Below are positions 1-31,603 of a stretch of 64,000 nt of DNA, one piece after another. The DNA is from Eledone cirrhosa (lineage: Eukaryota). The notes beneath the pieces were generated by a model. It was not told where the DNA came from, did not search any database, and was given only the letters and a program-made list of their open reading frames with translations. The position numbers were made by a program, and so were the translations under genes. Positions within the stretch are counted from its first letter, which is position 1; the number at the start of each line of letters is the position of its first letter. The stretch spans positions 432,202,001 to 432,266,000 of the forward strand of contig OZ024740.1 of assembly GCA_964016885.1 (NCBI GenBank), given 5' to 3'.

Positions 1-3000
1 AACTTGGTTCTAACTGTTGCTACAGCTTGGGCAGGTCCACTGAAATAGAACTTGGTTCTAACAGTTGCTACAGCTTGGGCACGGCAACTGAAATAGAACT
101 TGGTTCTAACAGTTGCTAGAGCTTGGGCACGTCCACTGAAATAGAACTTGGTTCTAACAGTTGCTACAGCTTGGGCACGTCCACTGAAATAGAACATGGT
201 TCTAACAGTTGCTACAGCTTGGGCACGGCAACTGAAATAGAACTTGGTTCTAACAGTTGCTACAGCTTGGGCACGTCCACTGAAATAGAACTTGGTTCTA
301 ACAGTTGCTACAGCTTGGGTAGGTCCACTGAAATAGAACTTGGTTCTAACAGTTGCTACAGCTTGGGCACGGCCACTGAAATTGAACTTGGTTCTAACAG
401 TTGCTACAGCTTGGGCACGTCCACTGAAATAGAACTTGGTTCTAACAGTTGCTACAGCTTGGGCACGTCCACTGAAATAGAACATGGTTCTAACAGTTGC
501 TACAGCTTGGGCACGTCCACTGAAATAGAACTTGCTTCTAACAGTTGCTACAGCTTGGGCAGGTCCACTGAAATAGAACTTGGTTCTAACAGTTGCTACA
601 TCTTGGGCACGTCCACTGAAATAGAACTTGGTTCTAACAGTTGCTACAGCTTGGGCACGTCCACTGAAATAGAACTTGGTTCTAACAGTTGCTACAGCTT
701 GGGCAGGTCCATTGAAATAGAACTTGGTTCTAACAGTTGCTACAGCTTGGGCACGTCCACTGAAATAGAACTTGGTTCTAACAGTTGCTACACCTTGGGC
801 AGGTCCACTGAAATAGAACTTGGTTCTAACAGTTGCTACAGCTTGGGCACGTCCACTGAAATAGAACTTGGTTCTAACAGTTGCTACAGCTTGGGCACGT
901 CCACTGAAATAGAACTTGGTTCTAACAGTTGCTACAGCTTGGGCACGTCCACTGAAATAGAACTTGTTTCTAACAGTTGCTACAGCTTGGGCAGGTCCGC
1001 TGATATAGAACTTGGTTCTAACGGTTGCTACAGCTTGGGCAGGTCCACTGAAATAGAACTTGGTTCTAACAGTTGCTACAGCTTGGGCACGGCCACTGAA
1101 ATAGAACTTGGTTCTAACAGTTGCTACAGCTTGGGCACGGCCACTGAAATAGAACTTGGTTCTAACAGTTGCTACAGCTTGGGCACGTCCACTGAAATAG
1201 AACTTGGTTCTAACAGTTGCTACAGCTTGGGCAGGTCCACTGAAATAGAACTTGGTTCTAACAGTTGCTACAGCTTGGGCACGTCCACTGAAATAGAACT
1301 TGGTTCTAACAGTTGCTACAGCTTGGGTAGGTCCACTGAAATAGAACTTGGTTCTAACAGTTGCTACAGCTTGGGCACGGCCACTGAAATAGAACTTGGT
1401 TCTAACAGTTGCTACAGCTTGGGCACGTCCACTGAAATAGAACTTGGTTCTAACAGTTGCTACAGCTTGGGTAGGTCCACTGAAATAGAACTTGGTTCTA
1501 ACAGTTGCTACAGCTTGGGCAGGTGCACTGAAATAGAACTTAGTTCTAACGGTTGCTACAGCTTGGGCAGGTCCACTGAAATAGAACTTGGTTCTAACAG
1601 TTGCTACAGCTTGGGCACGTCCACTGAAATAGAACTTGGTTCTAACAGTTGCTACAGCTTGGGCAGGTCCATTGAAATAGAACTTGGTTCTAACAGTTGC
1701 TACAGCTTGGGCACGTCCACTGAAATAGAACTTGGTTCTAACAGTTGCTACACCTTGGGCACGTCCACTGAAATAGAACTTGGTTCTAACAGTTGCTACA
1801 GCTTGGGCACGTCCACTGAAATAGAACTTGGTTCTAACAGTTGCTACAGCTTGGGCACGTCCACTGAAATAGAACTTGGTTCTAACAGTTGCTACAGCTT
1901 GGGCACGTCCACTGAAATAGAACTTGGTTCTAACAGTTGCTACAGTTTGGGCACGTCCACTGAAATAGAACTTGGTTCTAACAGTTGCTACAGCTTGGGC
2001 AGGTCCACTGAAATAGAACTTGGTTCTAACAGTTGCTACAGCTTGGGCAGGTCCACTGAAATAGAACTTGGTTCTAACAGTTGCTACAGCTTGGGCACGT
2101 CCACTGAAATAGAACTTAGTTCTAACAGTTGCTACAGCTTGGGCAGGTCCATTGAAATAGAACTTGGTTCTAACAGTTGCTACAGCTTGGGCACGTCCAC
2201 TGAAATAGAACTTGGTTCTAACAGTTGCTACAGCTTGGGCACGTCCACTGAAATAGAACTTGGTTCTAACAGTTGCTACAGCTCGGGCAGGTTCACTGAA
2301 ATAGAACTTGGTTCTAACAGTTGCTACAGCTTGGGCACGTCCACTGAAATAGAACTTGGTTCTAACAGTTGCTACAGCTTGGGCACGTCCACTGAAATAG
2401 AACTTGGTTCTAACAGTTGCTACAGCTTGGGCACGTCCACTGAAATAGAACTTGGTTCTAACAGTTGCTACAGCTTGGGCACGTCCACTGAAATAGAACT
2501 TGGTTCTAACAGTTGCTACAGCTTGGGCACGTCCACTGAAATAGAACTTGGTTCTAACAGTTGCTACAGCTTGGGCACGTCCACTGAAATAGAACTTGGT
2601 TCTAACAGTTGCTACAGTTTGGGCACGTCCACTGAAATAGAACTTGGTTCTAACAGTTGCTACAGCTTGGGCAGGTCCACTGAAATAGAACTTGGTTCTA
2701 ACAGTTGCTACAGCTTGGGCAGGTCCACTGAAATAGAACTTGGTTCTAACAGTTGCTACAGCTTGGGCACGTCCACTGAAATAGAACTTGGTTCTAACAG
2801 TTGCTACAGCTTGGGCAGGTCCATTGAAATAGAACTTGGTTCTAACAGTTGCTACAGCTTGGGCACGTCCACTGAAATAGAACTTGGTTCTAACCGTTGC
2901 TACAGCTTGGGCACGTCCACTGAAATAGAACTTGGTTCTAACAGTTGCTACAGCTCGGGCAGGTTCACTGAAATAGAACTTGGTTCTAACAGTTGCTACA

Positions 3001-6000
3001 GCTTGGGCACGTCCACTGAAATAGAACTTGGTTCTAACAGTTGCTACAGCTTGGGCACGTCCACTGAAATAGAACTTGGTTCTAACAGTTGCTACAGCTT
3101 GGGCACGTCCACTGAAATAGAACTTGGTTCTAACAGTTGCTACAGCTTGGGCACGTCCACTGAAATAGAACTTGGTTCTAACAGTTGCTACAGCTTGGGC
3201 ACGTCCACTGAAATAGAACTTGGTTCTAACAGTTGCTACAGCTTGGGCACGTCCACTGAAATAGAACTTGGTTCTAACAGTTGCTACAGCTTGGGCACGT
3301 CCACTGAAATAGAACTTGGTTCTAACAGTTGCTACAGCTTGGGCACGTCCACTGAAATAGAACTTGGTTCTAACAGTTGCTACAGTTTGGGCACGTCCAC
3401 TGAAAAAGAACTTGGTTCTAACAGTTGCTACAGCTCGGGCACGTCCACTGAAATAGAACTTGTTTCTAACAGTTGCTACAGCTTGGGCAGGTCCACTGAA
3501 ATAGAACTTGGTTCTAACAGTTGCTACAGCTTGGGCACGTCCACTGAAATAGAACTTGGTTCTAACAGTTGCTACAGCTTGGGCACGTCCACTGAAATAG
3601 AACTTGGTTCTAACAGTTGCTACAGCTTGGGCACGGCCACTGAAATAGAACTTGGTTCTAACAGTTGCTACAGCTTGGGCACGGCCACTGAAATAGAACT
3701 TGGTTCTAACAGTTGCTACAGCTTGGGCACGTCCACTGAAATAGAACTTGGTTCTAACAGTTGCTACAGCTTGGGCACGTCCACTGAAATAGAACTTGGT
3801 TATAACAGTTGCTACAGCTTGGGCAGGTCCACTGAAATAGAACTTGGTTCTAAGAGTTGCTACAGCTTGGGCACGTCCACTGAAATAGAACTTGGTTCTA
3901 ACAGTTGCTACAGCTTGGGCAGGTCCACTGAAATAGAACTTGGTTTTAACAGTTGCTACAGCTTGGGCAGGTCCACTGAAATAGAACTTGGTTCTAACAG
4001 TTGCTACAGCTCGGGCAGGTCCACAGAAATAGAACTTGGTTCTAACAGTTGCTACAGCTTGGGCACGTCCACTGAAATAGAACTTGGTTCTAACAGTTGC
4101 TACAGCTCGGGCAGGTCCACAGAAATAGAACTTGGTTCTAACACTTGCTACAGCTCGGGCAGGTCCACTGAAATAGAACTTGGTTCTAACAGTTGCTACA
4201 GCTTGGGCACGTCCACTGAAATAGAACTTGGTTCTAACAGTTGCTACAGCTTGGGCACGTCCACTGAAATAGAACTTGGTTCTAACAGTTGCTACAGCTT
4301 GGGCACGTCCACTGAAATAGAACTTGGTTCTAACAGTTGCTACAGCTTGGGCACGTCCACTGAAATAGAACTTGGTTCTAACAGTTGCTACAGCTTGGGC
4401 ACGTCCACTGAAATAGAACTTGGTTCTAACAGTTGCTACAGCTTGGGCACGTCCACTGAAATAGAACTTGGTTCTAACAGTTGCTACAGCTTGGGCACGT
4501 CCACTGAAATAGAACTTGGTTCTAACAGTTGCTACAGCTCGGGCAGGTCCACTGAAATAGAACTTGGTTCTAACAGTTGCTACAGCTTGGGCACGTCCAC
4601 TGAAATAGAACTTGGTTCTAACAGTTGCTACAGCTTGGGCACGTCCACTGAAATAGAACTTGGTTCTAACAGTTGCTACAGCTTGGGCACGTCCACTGAA
4701 ATAGAACTTGGTTCTAACAGTTGCTACAGCTTGGGCAGGTCCACTGAAATAGAACTTGGTTCTAACAGTTGCTACAGCTCGGGCACGTCCACTGAAATAG
4801 AACTTGTTTCTAACAGTTGCTACAGCTTGGGCAGGTCCACTGAAATAGAACTTGGTTCTAACAGTTGCTACAGCTTGGGCACGTCCACTGAAAAAGAACT
4901 TGGTTCTAACAGTTGCTACAGCTTGGGCACGTCCACTGAAATAGAACTTGGTTCTAACAGTTGCTACAGCTTGGGCACGTCCACTGAAATAGAACTTGGT
5001 TCTAACAGTTGCTACAGCTCGGGCAGGTCCACTGAAATAGAACTTGGTTCTAACAGTTGCTACAGCTTGGGCAGGTCCGCTGATATAGAACTTGGTTCTA
5101 ACAGTTGCTACAGCTTGGGCATGGCCTCTGAAATAGAACTTGGTTCTAACAGTTGCTACAGCTTGGGCACGTCCACTGAAATAGAACATGGTTCTAACAG
5201 TTGCTACAGCTTGGGCACGGCAACTGAAATAGAACTTGGTTCTAACAGTTGCTACAGCTTGGGCACGTCCACTGAAATAGAACTTGGTTCTAACAGTTGC
5301 TACAGCTTGGGTAGGTCCACTGAAATAGAACTTGGTTCTAACAGTTGCTACAGCTTGGGCACGGCCACTGAAATTGAACTTGGTTCTAACAGTTGCTACA
5401 GCTTGGGCACGTCCACTGAAATAGAACTTGGTTCTAACAGTTGCTACAGCTTGGGCACGTCCACTGAAATAGAACATGGTTCTAACAGTTGCTACAGCTT
5501 GGGCACGTCCACTGAAATAGAACTTGCTTCTAACAGTTGCTACAGCTTGGGCAGGTCCACTGAAATAGAACTTGGTTCTAACAGGTGCTACATCTTGGGC
5601 ACGTCCACTGAAATAGAACTTGGTTCTAACAGTTGCTACAGCTTGGGCACGTCCACTGAAATAGAACTTGGTTCTAACAGTTGCTACAGCTTGGGCAGGT
5701 CCATTGAAATAGAACTTGGTTCTAACAGTTGCTACAGCTTGGGCACGTCCACTGAAATAGAACTTGGTTCTAACAGTTGCTACACCTTGGGCAGGTCCAC
5801 TGAAATAGAACTTGGTTCTAACAGTTGCTACAGCTTGGGCACGTCCACTGAAATAGAACTTGGTTCTAACAGTTGCTACAGCTTGGGCACGTCCACTGAA
5901 ATAGAACTTGGTTCTAACAGTTGCTACAGCTTGGGCACGTCCACTGAAATAGAACTTGTTTCTAACAGTTGCTACAGCTTGGGCAGGTCCGCTGATATAG

Positions 6001-9000
6001 AACTTGGTTCTAACGGTTGCTACAGCTTGGGCAGGTCCACTGAAATAGAACTTGGTTCTAACAGTTGCTACAGCTTGGGCACGGCCACTGAAATAGAACT
6101 TGGTTCTAACAGTTGCTACAGCTTGGGCACGGCCACTGAAATAGAACTTGGTTCTAACAGTTGCTACAGCTTGGGCACGTCCACTGAAATAGAACTTGGT
6201 TCTAACAGTTGCTACAGCTTGGGCAGGTCCACTGAAATAGAACTTGGTTCTAACAGTTGCTACAGCTTGGGCACGTCCACTGAAATAGAACTTGGTTCTA
6301 ACAGTTGCTACAGCTTGGGTAGGTCCACTGAAATAGAACTTGGTTCTAACAGTTGCTACAGCTTGGGCACGGCCACTGAAATAGAACTTGGTTCTAACAG
6401 TTGCTACAGCTTGGGCACGTCCACTGAAATAGAACTTGGTTCTAACAGTTGCTACAGCTTGGGTAGGTCCACTGAAATAGAACTTGGTTCTAACAGTTGC
6501 TACAGCTTGGGCAGGTGCACTGAAATAGAACTTAGTTCTAACGGTTGCTACAGCTTGGGCAGGTCCACTGAAATAGAACTTGGTTCTAACAGTTGCTACA
6601 GCTTGGGCACGTCCACTGAAATAGAACTTGGTTCTAACAGTTGCTACAGCTTGGGCAGGTCCATTGAAATAGAACTTGGTTCTAACAGTTGCTACAGCTT
6701 GGGCACGTCCACTGAAATAGAACTTGGTTCTAACAGTTGCTACACCTTGGGCACGTCCACTGAAATAGAACTTGGTTCTAACAGTTGCTACAGCTTGGGC
6801 ACGTCCACTGAAATAGAACTTGGTTCTAACAGTTGCTACAGCTTGGGCACGTCCACTGAAATAGAACTTGGTTCTAACAGTTGCTACAGCTTGGGCACGT
6901 CCACTGAAATAGAACTTGGTTCTAACAGTTGCTACAGCTTGGGCACGTCCACTGAAATAGAACTTGGTTCTAACAGTTGCTACAGTTTGGGCACGTCCAC
7001 TGAAATAGAACTTGGTTCTAACAGTTGCTACAGCTTGGGCAGGTCCACTGAAATAGAACTTGGTTCTAACAGTTGCTACAGCTTGGGCACGTCCACTGAA
7101 ATAGAACTTGGTTCTAACAGTTGCTACAGCTTGGGCACGTCCACTGAAATAGAACTTGGTTCTAACAGTTGCTACAGCTTGGGCAGGTCCATTGAAATAG
7201 AACTTGGTTCTAACAGTTGCTACAGCTTGGGCACGTCCACTGAAATAGAACTTGGTTCTAACAGTTGCTACAGCTTGGGCACGTCCACTGAAATAGAACT
7301 TGGTTCTAACAGTTGCTACAGCTCGGGCAGGTTCACTGAAATAGAACTTGGTTCTAACAGTTGCTACAGCTTGGGCACGTCCACTGAAATAGAACTTGGT
7401 TCTAACAGTTGCTACAGCTTGGGCACGTCCACTGAAATAGAACTTGGTTCTAACAGTTGCTACAGCTTGGGCACGTCCACTGAAATAGAGCTTGGTTCTA
7501 ACAGTTGCTACAGCTTGGGCACGTCCACTGAAATAGAACTTGGTTCTAACAGTTGCTACAGCTTGGGCACGTCCACTGAAATAGAACTTGGTTCTAACAG
7601 TTGCTACAGCTTGGGCACGTCCACTGAAATAGAACTTGGTTCTAACAGTTGCTACAGCTTGGGCACGTCCACTGAAATAGAACTTGGTTCTAACAGTTGC
7701 TACAGCTTGGGCACGTCCACTGAAATAGAACTTGGTTCTAACAGTTGCTACAGTTTGAGCACGTCCACTGAAAAAGAACTTGGTTCTAACAGTTGCTACA
7801 GCTCGGGCACGTCCACTGAAATAGAACTTGTTTCTAACAGTTGCTACAGCTTGGGCAGGTCCACTGAAATAGAACTTGGTTCTAACAGTTGCTACAGCTT
7901 GGGCACGTCCACTGAAATAGAACTTGGTTCTAACAGTTGCTACAGCTTGGGCACGTCCACTGAAATAGAACTTGGTTCTAACAGTTGCTACAGCTTGGGC
8001 ACGTCCACTGAAATAGAACTTGGTTCTAACAGTTGCTACAGCTTGGGCACGTCCACTGAAATAGAACTTGGTTCTAACAGTTGCTACAGCTTGGGCACGT
8101 CCACTGAAATAGAACTTGGTTCTAACAGTTGCTACAGCTTGGGCACGTCCACTGAAATAGAACTTGGTTCTAACAGTTGCTACAGCTTGGGCACGTCCAC
8201 TGAAATAGAACTTGGTTCTAACAGTTGCTACAGCTTGGGCACGTCCACTGAAATAGAACTTGGTTCTAACAGTTGCTACAGTTTGGGCACGTCCACTGAA
8301 AAAGAACTTGGTTCTAACAGTTGCTACAGCTCGGGCACGTCCACTGAAATAGAACTTGTTTCTAACAGTTGCTACAGCTTGGGCAGGTCCACTGAAATAG
8401 AACTTGGTTCTAACAGTTGCTACAGCTTGGACACGTCCACTGAAATAGAACTTGGTTCTAACAGTTGCTACAGCTTGGGCACGTCCACTGAAATAGAACT
8501 TGGTTCTAACAGTTGCTACAGCTTGGGCACGGCCACTGAAATAGAACTTGGTTCTAACAGTTGCTACAGCTTGGGCACGTCCACTGAAATAGAACTTGGT
8601 TCTAACAGTTGCTACAGCTTGGGCACGTCCACTGAAATAGAACTTGGTTATAACAGTTGCTACAGCTTGGGCAGGTCCACTGAAATAGAACTTGGTTCTA
8701 AGAGTTGCTACAGCTTGGGCACGTCCACTGAAATAGAACTTGGTTCTAACAGTTGCTACAGCTTGGGCAGGTCCACTGAAATAGAACTTGGTTCTAACAG
8801 TTGCTACAGCTTGGGCAGGTCCACTGAAATAGAACTTGGTTCTAACAGTTGCTACAGCTCGGGCAGGTCCACAGAAATAGAACTTGGTTCTAACAGTTGC
8901 TACAGCTTGGGCACGTCCACTGAAATAGAACTTGGTTCTAACAGTTGCTACAGCTCGGGCAGGTCCACAGAAATAGAACTTGGTTCTAACACTTGCTACA

Positions 9001-11683
9001 GCTCGGGCAGGTCCACTGAAATAGAACTTGGTTCTAACAGTTGCTACAGCTTGGGCACGTCCACTGAAATAGAACTTGGTTCTAACAGTTGCTACAGCTT
9101 GGGCACGTCCACTGAAATAGAACTTGGTTCTAACAGTTGCTACAGCTTGGGCACGTCCACTGAAATAGAACTTGGTTCTAACAGTTGCTACAGCTTGGGC
9201 ACGTCCACTGAAATAGAACTTGGTTCTAACAGTTGCTACAGCTTGGGCACGTCCACTGAAATAGAACTTGGTTCTAACAGTTGCTACAGCTTGGGCACGT
9301 CCACTGAAATAGAACTTGGTTCTAACAGTTGCTACAGCTTGGGCACGTCCACTGAAATAGAACTTGGTTCTAACAGTTGCTACAGCTCGGGCAGGTCCAC
9401 TGAAATAGAACTTGGTTCTAACAGTTGCTACAGCTTGGGCACGTCCACTGAAATAGAACTTGGTTCTAACAGTTGCTACAGCTTGGGCACGTCCACTGAA
9501 ATAGAACTTGGTTCTAACAGTTGCTACAGCTTGGGCACGTCCACTGAAATAGAACTTGGTTCTAACAGTTGCTACAGCTTGGGTAGGTCCACTGAAATAG
9601 AACTTGGTTCTAACAGTTGCTACAGCTCGGGCACGTCCACTGAAATAGAACTTGTTTCTAACAGTTGCTACAGCTTGGGCAGGTCCACTGAAATAGAACT
9701 TGGTTCTAACAGTTGCTACAGCTTGGGCACGTCCACTGAAAAAGAACTTGGTTCTAACAGTTGCTACAGCTTGGGCACGTCCACTGAAATAGAACTTGGT
9801 TCTAACAGTTGCTACAGCTTGGGCACGTCCACTGAAATAGAACTTGGTTCTAACAGTTGCTACAGCTCGGGCAGGTCCACTGAAATAGAACTTGGTTCTA
9901 ACAGTTGCTACAGCTTGGGCAGGTCCGCTGATATAGAACTTGGTTCTAACAGTTGCTACAGCTTGGGCATGGCCACTGAAATAGAACTTGGTTCTAACAG
10001 TTGCTACAGCTTGGGCACGTCCACTGAAATAGAACTTGGTTCTAACAGTTGCTACAGCTTGGGCACGTCCACTGAAATAGAACTTGGTTCTAACAGTTGC
10101 TACAGCTTGGGCACGTCCACTGAAATAGAACTTGGTTCTAACAGTTGCTACAGCTTGGGCACGTCCACTGAAATAGAACTTGGTTCTAACAGTTGCTACA
10201 GCTTGGGCACGTCCACTGAAATAGAACTTGGTTCTAACAGTTGCTACAGCTTGGGCACGTCCACTGAAATAGAACTTGGTTCTAACAGTTGCTACAGCTT
10301 GGGCACGTCCACTGAAATAGAACTTGGTTCTAACAGTTGCTACAGCTTGGGCACGTCCACTGAAATAGAACTTGGTTCTAACAGTTGCTACAGCTTGGGC
10401 ACGTCCACTGAAATAGAACTTGGTTCTAACAGTTGCTACAGCTTGGGCAGGTCCACTGAAATAGAACTTGGTTCTAACAGTTGCTACAGCTTGGGCACGT
10501 CCACTGAAATAGAACTTGGTTCTAACAGTTGCTACAGCTTGGGCAGGTCGACTGAAATAGAACTTGGTTCTAACAGTTGCTACAGCTTGGGCAGGTCTAC
10601 TGAAATAGAACTTGGTTCTAACAGTTGCTACAGCTTGGGCAGGTCCACTGAAATAGAACTTGGTTCTAACAGTTGCTACAGCTTGGGCACGTCCACTGAA
10701 ATAGAACTTGGTTCTAACAGTTGCTACAGCTTGGGCAGGTCCACTGAAATAGAACTTGGTTCTAACAGTTGCTACAGCTTGGGCAGGTCCACTGAAATAG
10801 AACTTGGTTCTAACAGTTGCTACAGCTTGGGCAGGTCCACTGAAATAGAACTTGGTTCTAACAGTTGCTACAGCTTGGGCACGTCCACTGAAATAGAACT
10901 TGGTTCTAACAGTTGCTACAGCTTGGGCAGGTCCACTGAAATAGAACTTGCTTCTAACAGTTGCTACAGCTTGGGCAGGTCCACTGAAATAGAACTTGGT
11001 TCTAACAGTTGCTACAGCTTGGGCACGTCCACTGAAATAGAACTTGGTTCTAACAGTTGCTACAGCTTGGGCACGTCCACTGAAATAGAACTTGGTTCTA
11101 ACAGTTGCTACAGCTTGGGCACATCCACTGAAATAGAACTTGGTTCTAACAGTTGCTACAGCTTGGGCACGTCCACTGAAATAGAACTTGGTTCTAACAG
11201 TTGCTACAGCTTGGGCAGGTCCACTGAAATAGAACTTGGTTCTAACAGTTGCTACAGCTTGGGCAGGTCCACTGAAATAGAACTTGGTTCTAACAGTTGC
11301 TACAGCTCGGGCACGTCCACTGAAATAGAACTTGGTTCTAACAGTTGCTACAGCTTGGGCACGTCCACTGAAATAGAACTTGGTTCTAACATTTGCTACA
11401 GCTTGGGCAGGTCCACTGAAATAGAACTTGGGTCTAACAGTTGCTACAGCTTGGGCAGGTCCATTGAAATAGAACTTGGTTCTAACAGTTGCTACAGCTT
11501 GGGCAGGTCCACTGAAATAGAACTTGGTTCTAACAGTTGCTACAGCTTGGGCAGGTCCGCTGATATAGAACTTGGTTCTAACAGTTGCTACAGCTTGGGC
11601 AGGTCCACTGAAATAGAACTTGGTTCTAACAGTTGCTACAGCTTGGGCAGGTCCGCTGAAATAGAACTTGGTTCTAACAGTTG
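1..11683. repeat. 48-bp satellite, ~243 copies in window (runs off left edge), inside a PIGQ intron
   Basis: Unit CCACTGAAATAGAACTTGGTTCTAACAGTTGCTACAGCTTGGGCA(C/G)GT repeated with point variants and no visible indels; lies 3' of the PIGQ donor at 12337. Confidence 0.98.
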
Positions 11684-11756
11684 TGAAGAATTGTTAGTTC
11701 CCAACAACAATTATTACTCTGAACAAAATCCAACTTCACCCAACTATAGAGTAGCG

Positions 11757-12213
11757 TGGATGGTGGTGGTGGTGGTGTGATGGTGATGGTGGTGGTGGTG
11801 GTGGTGGTGGTGTGATGGTGATGGTGGTGGTGGTGGTGGTGTGATGGTGATGGTGGTGGTGGTGGTGGTGGTGTGATGGTGATGGTGGTGGTGGTGGTGG
11901 TGGTGGTGGTGGTGGTGTGATGGTGATGGTGGTGGTGGTGGTGGTGGTGTGATGGTGGTGGTGGTGGTGGTGGTGATGGTGATGGGGGTGATGGTGGTGG
12001 TGATGGTGATGGTGGTGATGATGATGATGATGATGATGGTGGTGGTGATGGTGGTGGTGGTGGTGGTGGTGGTGATGGTGGTGGTGGTGGTGGTGGTGGT
12101 GATGATGGTGATGATGTTGCTGATGATGATGATGGTGGTGGTGGTGGCGATGATGATGCTGATGCTGATGATGGTGGTGGTGGTGGTGATGGCGATGCTG
12201 ATGATGATGATGA
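11757..12213. repeat. Compound (TGG)n/(TGA)n microsatellite
   Basis: TGG runs interrupted by a recurring GTGTGATGGTGAT motif, grading into (TGA)n; source of the poly-H/T/P/V/M ORFs. Confidence 0.95.
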
Positions 12214-27417: not shown

Positions 27418-28349
27418 TATAGCGAAGAACTCGGTGTGTATGAATGTAACAAAGAGACATGGTTTGTGTGTATAATATTTAATCAACAATTTAACAGTAT
27501 AGTTGACATGTCAATGAATAAACGAAAGAATGAAACAAAGTTAGTAGTTACCGTTTTGATTGCCAGGCAAACGCGGCTGGCAGAAGACGCCTGGCGAAGG
27601 CCAGGCGCCGGAAGGGCCAATGAGAGAGTGAGAACTTAAAGTTGTTAGTTTTATAGGGTTCTGACTACACCGAATACGCTCACTCAGCGAGACAACAGCA
27701 GCAGCAACAGCAATACAGCAGCAGCAACACCAACAGCAATATAACAGCAACAGCAATACAGCAGCAGCAGCAGCAACAGCAGCAGCAATACATCAACACA
27801 GCTTCACCAACAACCAAAGCCAGAGAATTTATTTTTGCAGCACTCTTCCTGTGAGAAAATCCATTCGGAGGTTGGAAATTTCACGATATACCACAGAACA
27901 GAAACCACCTGCATTCATTCTCTGGAACACACTTTCTTTCCTGCTGTCATGTGATTGCACACCAGTGAACATATTTCATTCGATTTTTATATTCTAAAAT
28001 TCTGGCGGGAGGTTATGTAGCAGTTGCCTCCCTTGTTTTCAACGGCAAATTTACGTGGTAAATTTTTAAACCGGCGAATAGGAGAATATAGCTTAAGGCT
28101 GAAGAATCCTTGGCGAGAAACGTTATCTCTGTGAGTCGAGAATTTGTGCTGCCTACACGTGCCAATACAAGGTTAAGTTAGGTTTAAAAAATAATATTTC
28201 TAACGCGCGAGAAAATGATAGTGCAAGTGTGAAAGTGACAATGATGAAAAAGAAAGGCTTCACTCAGCATAATTATTGGTGTGAACTTTGGAAAAAAAAC
28301 TTGAACGATGAAGAAAACGATGAAAAAAAAAAAAAAAATGGTTCATCGA
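27418..28349 (-). mobile_element. Truncated, internally inverted sister copy of the LTR element at 29534-31538
   Basis: 27418-27665 matches the LTR (direct); 27666-28037 is the reverse complement of ~30330->29838; ~28036-28349 is a direct match to ~30488-30868 with deletions. Confidence 0.88.
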
Positions 28350-29530: not shown

Positions 29531-29904
29531 CAATATAGTGAGATACTGGGTTGTATGATTTGTAACAAGGAGACATGGTTTGTGTGTATAATATTTAATC
29601 AACAATTTAACAGTATAGTTGACATGTCAATGAATAAACGAAAGAATGAAACAAAGTTAGTAGTTACCGTTTTGATTGCCAGGCAAACGCGGGACGCCTG
29701 GCGAAGGCCAGGCGCCGGAAGGGCAAATGAGAGGGTGAGAACTTAAAGTTGTTAGTTTTATAGGGTTCTGACCGGAAGTTACAGAAAGGGTTCTACTTCC
29801 CGTCTAGATGTTGTTAATCTATTGGGGTTGTGAGTCACAACAAGGGAGGCAACTGCTACATAACCTCCCGCCAGAATTTTAGAATATAAAAATCGAATGA
29901 AATA

Positions 29905-30091
29905 TGTAGCAAGTTGGCGAGAATGTTGTAACAGGCATGAACATTACGACAAAAGAATGTTTGCAAAAATCAATGATAGATGTCAAGGTAGCCAACCGCT
30001 CTTGGCCAGAGAACGACTGGACATCTATCTATCCATCACCCAAAGATACAATGTAATAAAGTAAGAGAAGAGCTCAAAGTTCAAATGTACA
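29905..30091 (+). mobile_element. 187-bp solo LTR of a second family nested in the LTR element
   Basis: TGTA...TACA termini, 5-bp duplication AAATA (29900-29904 and 30092-30096), AATAAA at 30055; the segment is absent from the sister copy at ~27965-27977 (empty site). Confidence 0.75.
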
Positions 30092-31178
30092 AAATATAGT
30101 TCACAGGTGTGCAATCACATGACAGCAGGAAAGAAAGTGTGTTCCAGAGAATGAATGCAGGTGGTTTCTGTTCTGTGGTATATCGTGAAATTTCCAACCT
30201 CCGAATGGATTTTCTCACAGGAAGAGTGCTGCAAAAATAAATTCTCTGGCTTGTTCTGCTGGTTTTGGTTGTTGGTGAAGCTGTGTTGCTGTTGATGTTG
30301 TTGTCTCGCGGAGTGAGCGTATTCGGTGTTTAAATTCACAGTAAAAAAAAAATTTTCAGAAAAAATGAGTTGCGCAAAGTGCTAGAAATAACAGCCGAAG
30401 TTGATGGTCGATGTTGAGAATGCGTTGACCTGGAAGGGTCAAGAGGCCAGCGACCAAAGAAATAAGCATTCTGAATAAATGCGCAGTTTTCAACGGCAAA
30501 TTTACGTGGTAAATTTTTAAACCGGCGAATAGGAGAATATAGCTTAAGGCTGAAGAATCCTTGGCGAGAAACGTTATCTCTGGCGTGCGGCTATCTCTGT
30601 GAGTCGAGATATCTCTGTGAGTCGAGAATTTGTGCTGCCTACGTGCCAATACAAGGTTAAGTTAGGTTTAAAAAATAATATTTCTAACGCGCGTGAAAAT
30701 GAAAGTGCAACAGGTCGTTGGCAGCAATTTTGAAAAAAATGTGTGTGAAAGTGACAATTATGAAAAAGAAAGGCTTCACTTAGCATAATTATTGGTGTGA
30801 ACTTTGAAAAAAAACTTGAACGATGAAGGAAACGATGAAAAAAAAAAAAAAAGGCAATGGTTCATCGAAAATAAATATTCCTGTTGAAATGTTTCAAAAA
30901 AAAAAAAATATCAAATTTTTTTTTTTTTTTTTTTTTTTGTTGAAAGTGTTCGTTGTAGGAAACGAGAAACATATATATCGTGAAATGCGACAGTTAGTTG
31001 ATGCGTGAGAGAAAAAGTCTGTCTGAACGCGAATTTCACATGTGCGTGTGTGCGTTTCTTTGACTGAGTATTTTCATAGTTTGTCAATAAATTTGCTGTG
31101 TATTCGTAATGTTACTAACACAACACCAGATTCTGCTATTTTTTTCTTTTTTCGGGGTGACCACTTATAACAATGAAC

Positions 31179-31210
31179 GGCTGCGTGTTCGTATCACGTC
31201 GGTGTTACCA
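31179..31210 (-). other. Extended tRNA-Trp primer-binding site
   Basis: Plus strand GGCTGCGTGTTCGTATCACGTCGGTGTTACCA versus the metazoan tRNA-Trp 3' end as recalled, GGCTGCGTGTTCGAATCACGTCGGGGTCACCA: 29/32, including CCA. Confidence 0.85.
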
Positions 31211-31603
31211 ATATAGTGAGATACTGGGTTGTATGATTTGTAACAAGGAGACATGGTTTGTGTGTATAATATTTAATCAACAATTTAACAGTATAGTTGA
31301 CATGTCAATGAATAAACGAAAGAATGAAACAAAGTTTGTAGTTACCGTTTTGATTGCCAGGCAAACGCGGGACGCCTGGCGAAGGCCAGGCGCCGGAAGG
31401 GCAAATGAGAGGGTGAGAACTTAAAGTTGTTAGTTTTATAGGGTTCTGACCGGAAGTTACAGAAAGGGTTCTACTTCCCGTCTAGATGTTGTTAATCTAT
31501 TGGGGTTGTGAGTCACAACAAGGGAGGCAACTGCTACACTAGCTTGTCAGGTGCTGAGATGGAAGGCTGTCACAGTGGTCTTGCTATGGTCGGACTGTAT
31601 ATA

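What the first reader, a model, noticed from the sequence alone, without database searches (positions are those of the whole stretch)
31179..31210. PBS extends 32 nt into tRNA-Trp with a substitution exactly at position 58: possible fossil of RT read-through of m1A58
Seen: GGCTGCGTGTTCGTATCACGTCGGTGTTACCA abuts the LTR. Established: PBS copying normally stops after 18 nt at m1A58, RTs that bypass m1A often misincorporate, and CCA is added post-transcriptionally. Against the recalled tRNA-Trp sequence the match continues 14 nt past that limit, through the T-loop to about position 45. The only mismatch in the extension is A->T at the 19th base from the 3' end (31192 = position 58). Inference: mature modified tRNA was copied past m1A58 and fixed in the element, giving an oversized PBS that could unwind the whole T-arm, pair with 3' tRNA halves, or outcompete the autonomous partner for primer.
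Basis: partly seen in the sequence, partly recalled or inferred. Interest (0 to 1): 0.72.

Follow-up and report, generated by a model that had tools for sequence, protein, structure and literature searches.

The report
Retrotransposon with frozen over-copied tRNA primer
A jumping-gene family with over 500 copies in this animal genome carries a 32-base match to the tRNA that primes its copying, almost twice the usual length, with one wrong letter where tRNAs usually bear a methyl mark; it is likely a frozen copying accident rather than a needed part, and similar over-copies elsewhere likely record where this tRNA is chemically modified.

Summary
Observation confirmed. Window 31179-31210 matches host tRNA-Trp positions 45-76, with T for A at 58. 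It lies one base from the 5' LTR of a 2.0-kb non-coding element of CsRn1 type (minus strand, LTRs 99.7% alike). At least 570 copies carry T58; none carries A58.

The read-through origin is well supported:
- The long site sits in a 46-base insert bounded by a duplicated LTR end and short primer site.
- A multi-copy sister family lacks the insert and has a 12-base site.
- Among 28 one-off tRNA copies beside LTR ends, 6 have T, C or G at 58.
- Their ends cluster near positions 37 and 28, and unrelated metagenome contigs show the same anatomy.

The functional claims are not supported:
- The sister family spreads with 12 bases.
- Coding families have equally long or longer sites.
- The 18-base core reverts to host sequence repeatedly while 58 never does, so copying still stops at 58.

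One host gene copy does carry T58. The closest known case is the lentiviral primer over-extension sequence, which runs to about tRNA position 54-55. The scan noted this family before on another piece of this genome (e1-10321918).

The parts
31212..31538 (-). 5' LTR (327 bp) of a non-autonomous CsRn1-type Ty3/gypsy element
   Evidence: direct repeat of 29534-29860, 329 of 330 identical; ends mapped
31211..31211 (-). one-base spacer between LTR end and primer binding site
31193..31210 (-). 18-base core primer binding site, complementary to tRNA-Trp 59-76; two mismatches in this copy (tRNA 69 at 31203, tRNA 72 at 31206)
   Evidence: host genes; family variants
31179..31192 (-). 14-base over-extension complementary to tRNA-Trp 45-58, with the substitution at position 58 (31192)
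31152..31178 (-). duplication scar: second copy of the LTR's last 13 bases, a 2-base spacer and the old 12-base primer site
   Evidence: 22-base direct repeat in copy L300; aligns with the LTR end and 12-base site of the sister family
29876..31151 (-). non-coding internal region (longest stop-free frame in the element 101 codons; no similarity to gag or pol of coding families)
   Evidence: tblastn of 96 frames from 8 loci: no hit
29861..29875 (-). polypurine-tract-like site before the 3' LTR
29534..29860 (-). 3' LTR; followed by three more bases equal to spacer plus primer-site start; no target-site duplication at this copy

Best explanation
The 32-base site is likely a frozen product of one plus-strand strong-stop DNA that ran past the (inferred) m1A58 of its tRNA-Trp primer, and it is now inherited from the element's RNA rather than re-copied from tRNA. 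Steps: (1) an ancestor with a 12-base primer site was primed by tRNA-Trp (shown: sister family; direction inferred). (2) Reverse transcriptase copied the primer past 58, put in a wrong base there and stopped at 45, near the base of the anticodon stem (inferred from 28 independent one-off over-copies). (3) The over-long 3' end re-annealed out of register at the LTR end, which duplicated the LTR end and old site and inserted 46 bases (scar shown; mechanism inferred). (4) That copy founded a family of at least 570 (shown). (5) Today primer copying still stops at or before 58: the core is now and then corrected to host sequence, position 58 never (shown by counts and tree). The extra pairing is likely dispensable; it may have let mismatches build up in the core (predicted).
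For: Family: 570 copies with T58, 8 with C58, 0 with A or G. Scar: 22-base direct repeat in L300, which has a host-like core and already T58. Sister family: 27 of 30 loci show a roughly 12-base site and no extension, 3 not read; the window aligns to it with one 45-base gap. One sister copy has an 18-base tRNA copy after its 3' LTR that stops at 59. One-off over-copies: 6 of 28 have T, C or G at 58, against 8 mismatches over the other 29 scored sites (p about 1e-4 after x30) and 0 of 112 at four other A sites. Dropping the two that could come from the T58 gene copy leaves 4 (p 0.015). Their ends: 16 at 35-40, 8 at 41-45, 4 at 28-29, none at 30-34. G37 is replaced in 2 of 6 genome copies that pass it and reach position 30 or below. 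Two one-offs show the same re-entry into the LTR end (L148, L117). Metagenome contigs: 16 of 114 sites extend to 54 or beyond (2 are tRNA-Arg genes), 5 with G at 58, and five loci carry the same scar. Core correction: 11 of the first 100 cores are fully host-like and 20 are host-like at 72, scattered over the tree (13 changes for 15 rows, as for shuffled labels). Arrest plus misincorporation is the known m1A signature (PMC4787781, passages).
Against: m1A58 was not measured in this organism; no RNA data were at hand. Most read-through copies keep A at 58 (22 of 28), so T58 could be a later point mutation in the founder. One host gene copy has T58 (L082). The sister family could have lost the 46 bases by deletion between the repeats instead of never having had them. 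No coding partner of this family was identified. The one-off set required a match to position 45 with at most one mismatch, so shorter or more damaged copies are missing. Grouping into independent events was by eye from flanks, and L083/L090 share a flank (collapsed: p 0.001).
Confidence: 0.72

Rival explanations
1. The extension was captured by read-through, but T58 is an ordinary later mutation in the founder, or was copied from a rare tRNA gene variant with T58.
For: 22 of 28 one-off over-copies keep A58. The family later fixed two other changes, at 67 and 72. One host gene copy has T58.
Against: Copies with a host-like core and an intact scar (L300; also L321) already have T58. The T58 gene copy has A57, the family G57. 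It is 1 gene copy against 23 read with A58. C and G at 58 in other over-copies cannot come from it.
Confidence: 0.15
2. The extension is kept by selection as a working part: either a long primer over-extension sequence that rescues read-through strong-stop DNA, as in lentiviruses, or an extended anchor that opens the T arm and offsets mismatches in the core.
For: Predicted duplex with the tRNA is -51.0 kcal/mol over 32 bases against -22.8 over 18 for this copy, and -36.3 for a perfect 18. Long sites are fixed in at least three coding families here (to positions 45 and 37) and in coding elements in metagenome contigs. In one coding family 1 of 4 copies differs at 47 and 58 together (L086), and two copies of another family differ at 58 (L083 G, L090 T), as re-copying would give.
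Against: In this family A58 never returns (0 of 578); the upper bound on use of read-through product is about 0.7% of copies. The sister family multiplies with 12 bases. 21 of the first 30 of 410 perfect 18-base sites in the genome stop at 58-59, as do 98 of 114 metagenome sites at 57-59. The two subfamilies are too close for a test of constraint. This rival can be true together with the best explanation of origin.
Confidence: 0.3
3. The piece is an independent tRNA-derived SINE or pseudogene insertion, or a chance match.
For: None found.
Against: Fixed position one base from the LTR in all copies read. Only the 3' part of the tRNA is present, in primer-site orientation. No tRNA or Rfam hit. 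Reversed-pattern controls give 0.
Confidence: 0.02

Closest known systems
Primer over-extension sequence of lentiviruses and spumaviruses (PMC13191261, passages; PMC8599865, Discussion read in full plus passages)
   Same: Complementarity to the primer tRNA continues downstream of the 18-base site, past m1A58. Read-through strong-stop DNA with stops at 58, 55, 54 and 37 is described for HIV-1.
   Different: There the extra match reaches only to about position 54-55 and is said to rescue transfer. Here it reaches 45 (37 in other families), carries a mismatch at 58, sits in a duplication scar, and shows no sign of being re-copied. Those papers say products running past 54 cannot integrate; this genome holds many integrated ones.
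CsRn1 clade of Ty3/gypsy elements (PMC2582038 and PMC3630058, passages)
   Same: tRNA-Trp primer site and 4-bp target duplication. [quoted passage not shown]
   Different: The window family is non-coding. The passages read do not mention sites longer than 18 bases. The primer-site alignment of PMC2582038 is a picture supplement that I did not see.
Dead-end plus-strand strong-stop DNA and non-inherited primer sequence of yeast Ty1/Ty3 (PMC5371799, section 2.2 read)
   Same: The primer copy is mostly not inherited, and tRNA-tailed strong-stop DNA accumulates as a by-product.
   Different: Here the core is corrected in about 11-20% of copies, and tRNA-tailed products were integrated and in one case founded a family.
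Mismatched primer sites of mouse ETn/MusD/IAP (PMC7472051, section 4.3 read)
   Same: The commonest site has two mismatches to the tRNA, with scattered reversions on the tree.
   Different: There the mismatches do not fall on modified positions and the site is 18 bases; here one mismatch falls on 58.
RT signature of base methylation in tRNA sequencing (PMC4787781, PMC5066629, passages)
   Same: Stops and wrong bases at m1A58, m1G37 and m2,2G26.
   Different: Here the pattern would have been written in vivo by a retrotransposon enzyme and kept in chromosomal DNA.

Membership tests
CsRn1 clade (non-autonomous derivative) | Primer site complementary to tRNA-Trp | tested here: met
CsRn1 clade (non-autonomous derivative) | 4-bp target-site duplication | tested here: met
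   14 of 16 complete family copies, 4 of 20 incomplete; the window copy itself has none
CsRn1 clade (non-autonomous derivative) | CHCC gag motif, GPY motif and RT placement | tested here: inconclusive
   The window family has no coding sequence. The motifs occur in other tRNA-Trp-primed families of this genome (L094, L325, L104, L111), which are not shown to mobilise it. No RT tree was built.
Primer over-extension sequence | tRNA complementarity directly downstream of the 18-base site | tested here: met
   13 of 14 bases, positions 58-45
Primer over-extension sequence | Read-through strong-stop DNA is used in strand transfer | tested here: not met
   Indirect test in this family: 0 of 578 copies show A58 while the core reverts in 11-20 of 100
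Fossil m1A58 misincorporation | Host gene has A at 58 | tested here: met
   23 of 23 gene copies read; one further copy has T58 (L082)
Fossil m1A58 misincorporation | Mixed wrong bases concentrated at 58 in independent copies | tested here: met
   6 of 28, with T, C and G
Fossil m1A58 misincorporation | A58 is methylated in this tRNA in this organism | not testable with these tools
   needs tRNA sequencing or mass spectrometry
tRNA-derived SINE or tRNA pseudogene | tRNA 5' part with A and B boxes, own tail and target duplication | tested here: not met
   only positions 45-76 present, in primer-site context

The most novel reading that the evidence does not exclude
CsRn1-type reverse transcriptases often run past m1A58, and their dead-end strong-stop DNAs get integrated. 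A genome assembly would then hold an in vivo 'fossil tRNA-seq' of the primer, with stops and wrong bases at 58, 37 and near 26. Capture of such products would be a recurrent, clade-wide way to rebuild a worn short primer site into a 23- to 40-base one that some coding families use as a long over-extension sequence.
Probability: 0.45. Interest if true: 0.7.

Novelty: new variant of a known kind. Interest (0 to 1): 0.52.

Why it matters
The stop at m1A58 is treated as a requirement for productive reverse transcription, and the HIV papers read here state that products running past position 54 cannot integrate. This genome shows such products integrated many times, fixed in coding families and founding a family of over 500 copies. 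If the signature holds, tRNA modifications and the error spectrum of a retrotransposon enzyme in the germ line could be read from assemblies alone. The trio of 12-, 18- and 32-base sites in close relatives also makes the question of how much primer pairing an LTR element needs directly testable.

Tried and rejected
- Search for the autonomous partner: no nucleotide or protein link between the window element and the coding families sampled. The only hit (L094, about 9770-9840) lies outside that element. A DNA search with the internal region returned its 40 best candidates at 82-100% identity, not fetched.
- A hammerhead-like motif at 30520-30600 does not fold better than shuffles (z 0.68): rejected.
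- Re-copying in the larger coding family, tested through the isodecoder site 57 (5 of 39 with A57): cannot be told from CpG decay.
- Constraint on the extension: the two subfamilies differ by only about 5%, so the test has no power.
- The Calliphora supplement search found no primer-site passage in the 2 files held as text; its CsRn1 figure is an old .doc that was not among them.
- Ten paper searches listed no report of fixed 32-40-base sites, or of a position-58 change, in LTR retrotransposons. Most listed papers were seen only as titles and abstract starts, and the library lacks most subscription journals and Repbase.

Full report
1. Observation. The quoted 32 bases lie at 31179-31210. Read on the minus strand they follow, after one spacer base, a 327-bp LTR (31538-31212). 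A second LTR at 29860-29534 is identical at 329 of 330 bases and is preceded by a purine-rich tract. The 2.0-kb element has no coding capacity: the longest stop-free frame is 101 codons, and there is no tblastn hit from 96 frames of other elements. Host tRNA-Trp(CCA) genes were read from the genome (a subset of loci confirmed by ARAGORN). All 23 gene copies printed have A58. A pattern open at 58 gave 67 matches, of which 63 have A, 2 C and 2 T. Three of the four non-A matches are CCA-ended pieces beside LTR ends; one is a gene copy in a tandem cluster (L082), with A57-T58 and a D-arm change. The window matches the main gene at 29 of 32 bases, with mismatches at 58, 69 and 72.

2. The family. 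A DNA search found 2323 candidates, of which 40 were scored; all 30 loci fetched carry the extension with T58. Patterns count 570 copies with T58, and 8 with C58 and none with A or G. Of 20 copies taken along one chromosome, 16 were complete and 14 of these have a 4-bp target duplication. The paired LTRs of most are 96-100% alike, so the family is young. The window copy has no target duplication.

3. The scar and the sister family. Directly behind the extension lies a second copy of the LTR's last 13 bases, a spacer and a 12-base primer site (31152-31178). In copy L300 this is an exact 22-base direct repeat. An unbiased look at perfect 18-base sites turned up L338, a relative 81% alike over 529 internal bases. 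Its LTR is followed by only a 12-base site and then the same A-rich leader. A search with it found 780 candidates; 27 of 30 loci show the short site and no extension, and 3 were not read. The window aligns to it with one 45-base gap. So the long site belongs to an insert of core, extension and LTR end. Loss by deletion in the sister family is not excluded, but the tRNA-derived bases must have entered at some time, and the repeat structure fits an out-of-register transfer (inference). The 3' LTR of L338 is followed by a perfect 18-base tRNA copy ending at 59. This shows both that a 12-base site is primed by tRNA-Trp and that the usual stop is at 58.

4. Independent over-copies. A pattern for CCA-ended positions 45-76 outside the family, allowing one mismatch, gave 72 places. 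They comprise 39 of a coding family type, all A58 (30 read in flank, 9 assigned from the matched letters), 4 of a second coding family, 1 of the window family and 28 one-offs with their own flanks beside the LTR ends of several different families. In the 28 one-offs, position 58 is T twice, C twice and G twice. The other 29 scored sites have 8 mismatches in all (p about 1e-4 after correction; 0 of 112 at four other A sites, Fisher p 4e-5). Collapsing two loci that share a flank gives p 0.001. Dropping the two A57-T58 loci that might derive from the T58 gene copy gives p 0.015. End points: 8 at 41-45, 16 at 35-40, none at 30-34, 4 at 28-29. Of six genome copies that pass 37 and reach 30 or below, two have a wrong base at 37. 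This is the pattern that m1A58, m1G37 and m2,2G26 leave in tRNA sequencing (PMC5066629, PMC4787781; passages). That this tRNA bears these marks here is assumed from general knowledge, not shown. Two one-offs re-enter their own LTR end after the tRNA copy (24 and 12 bases), the same anatomy as the family scar.

5. How common is it? Of the first 30 of 410 perfect 18-base sites in the genome, 21 stop at 58-59 and 9 extend. Two of the 16 are tRNA-Arg genes; five have G at 58. Two further sites look like a skipped base at 58 (by eye), one extended site has T at 37, and five loci carry the LTR-end scar. Three of the extended sites are flagged with a gag-like frame downstream. In this genome the coding families have RT, RNase H, integrase and protease domains, CHCC and GPY motifs and a 4-bp target duplication. 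These are the features given for the CsRn1 clade (PMC3630058, PMC2582038; passages). Their sites reach position 45 or 37.

6. Is the extension in use? Of the first 100 of 499 family cores, 76 share two mismatches to the host tRNA (67, 72), 11 are fully host-like, 9 are host-like at 72 only, and 4 are other (hand count). No host gene with the two-mismatch form appeared. A tree was built from the internal regions of 50 copies (of 70 loci given; the rest lacked enough sequence, and host-like copies were over-sampled on purpose). On it the host-like state at 72 needs 13 changes for 15 rows, like shuffled labels, at least 7 of them forced by well-supported branches. So the core is corrected from the tRNA again and again, while 58 never returns to A (11 of 100 against 0 of 578, p 4e-10). 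Read-through mostly gives A, so its product is used in at most about 0.7% of copies. The extension is therefore inherited from the template. Predicted pairing rises from -22.8 to -51.0 kcal/mol for this copy (perfect 18 bases: -36.3; modifications not modelled). This could buffer the core mismatches, but the 12-base sister family shows that it is not required. Hints of re-copying exist only in small coding or other families (L086; L083 against L090).

7. Comparison. The nearest described thing is the lentiviral primer over-extension sequence (PMC13191261, passages; PMC8599865, Discussion). It is shorter and is thought to be used. Ty1 and Ty3 make dead-end tRNA-tailed strong-stop DNA and do not inherit the primer (PMC5371799, section 2.2). 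Mouse ETn, MusD and IAP show mismatched sites with reversions, not at modified positions (PMC7472051, section 4.3). Ten searches listed no report of the present case. The primer-site figure of PMC2582038 and the CsRn1 figure of PMC3630058 were not seen and may bear on it. Earlier notes of this scan, read only, reached a similar reading on another copy; they are leads, not support.

8. Verdict. Real and well explained as a fixed read-through product (0.72). T58 is likely the misincorporation. A function is unproven and, as rescue of read-through DNA, disfavoured in this family. New variant of a known kind; interest 0.52.

Noticed in passing
window 27418-28349: A second, partial and rearranged relative of the element: an LTR piece, then an inverted stretch of internal sequence, tract and LTR start, then internal sequence in the first orientation again.
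   Followed up: no
window 31212-31240 and family copies L001-L030, L163-L182: The last 10-25 bases of the LTR beside the primer site vary far more between copies than the primer site next to them.
   Followed up: no
L076, L297, L299: Tandem 46-base repeats of the whole insert, likely from slippage between the LTR end and the scar. In L297 one further copy ends at the scar's LTR-end copy.
   Followed up: partly
L031, L327: A miniature derivative in which only the long primer site and the purine tract lie between LTRs, with C58.
   Followed up: no
L037, L048, L060, L067, L068, L104: A coding family whose primer site reaches to about position 37 and carries a fixed 2-base insertion inside the 18-base core in all copies seen.
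   Followed up: partly
L087, L071, L072: Fold-back or inverted joins in which the tRNA over-copy is joined to a reversed copy of itself or of the LTR end.
   Followed up: no
L315, L326: A coding family with an 18-base site followed by a duplicated LTR end and short site, without a clear tRNA extension.
   Followed up: no
L173: The 3' LTR is followed by a host-like start of the primer site although the copy's own 5' site is mismatched, likely an unremoved primer copy.
   Followed up: no
window 1-11800: A 48-base tandem array of about 241 copies with a stop-free frame of 3886 codons at 120-11780.
   Followed up: no
window 43000-64000: Two long strongly skewed blocks (GC skew about +0.6, then about -0.6), probably satellite arrays in opposite orientation.
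   Followed up: no
G000:C4:353393500-353490500 and C4:277407000-277445000: Two tandem clusters holding most tRNA-Trp genes; one copy (L082) has T58.
   Followed up: partly
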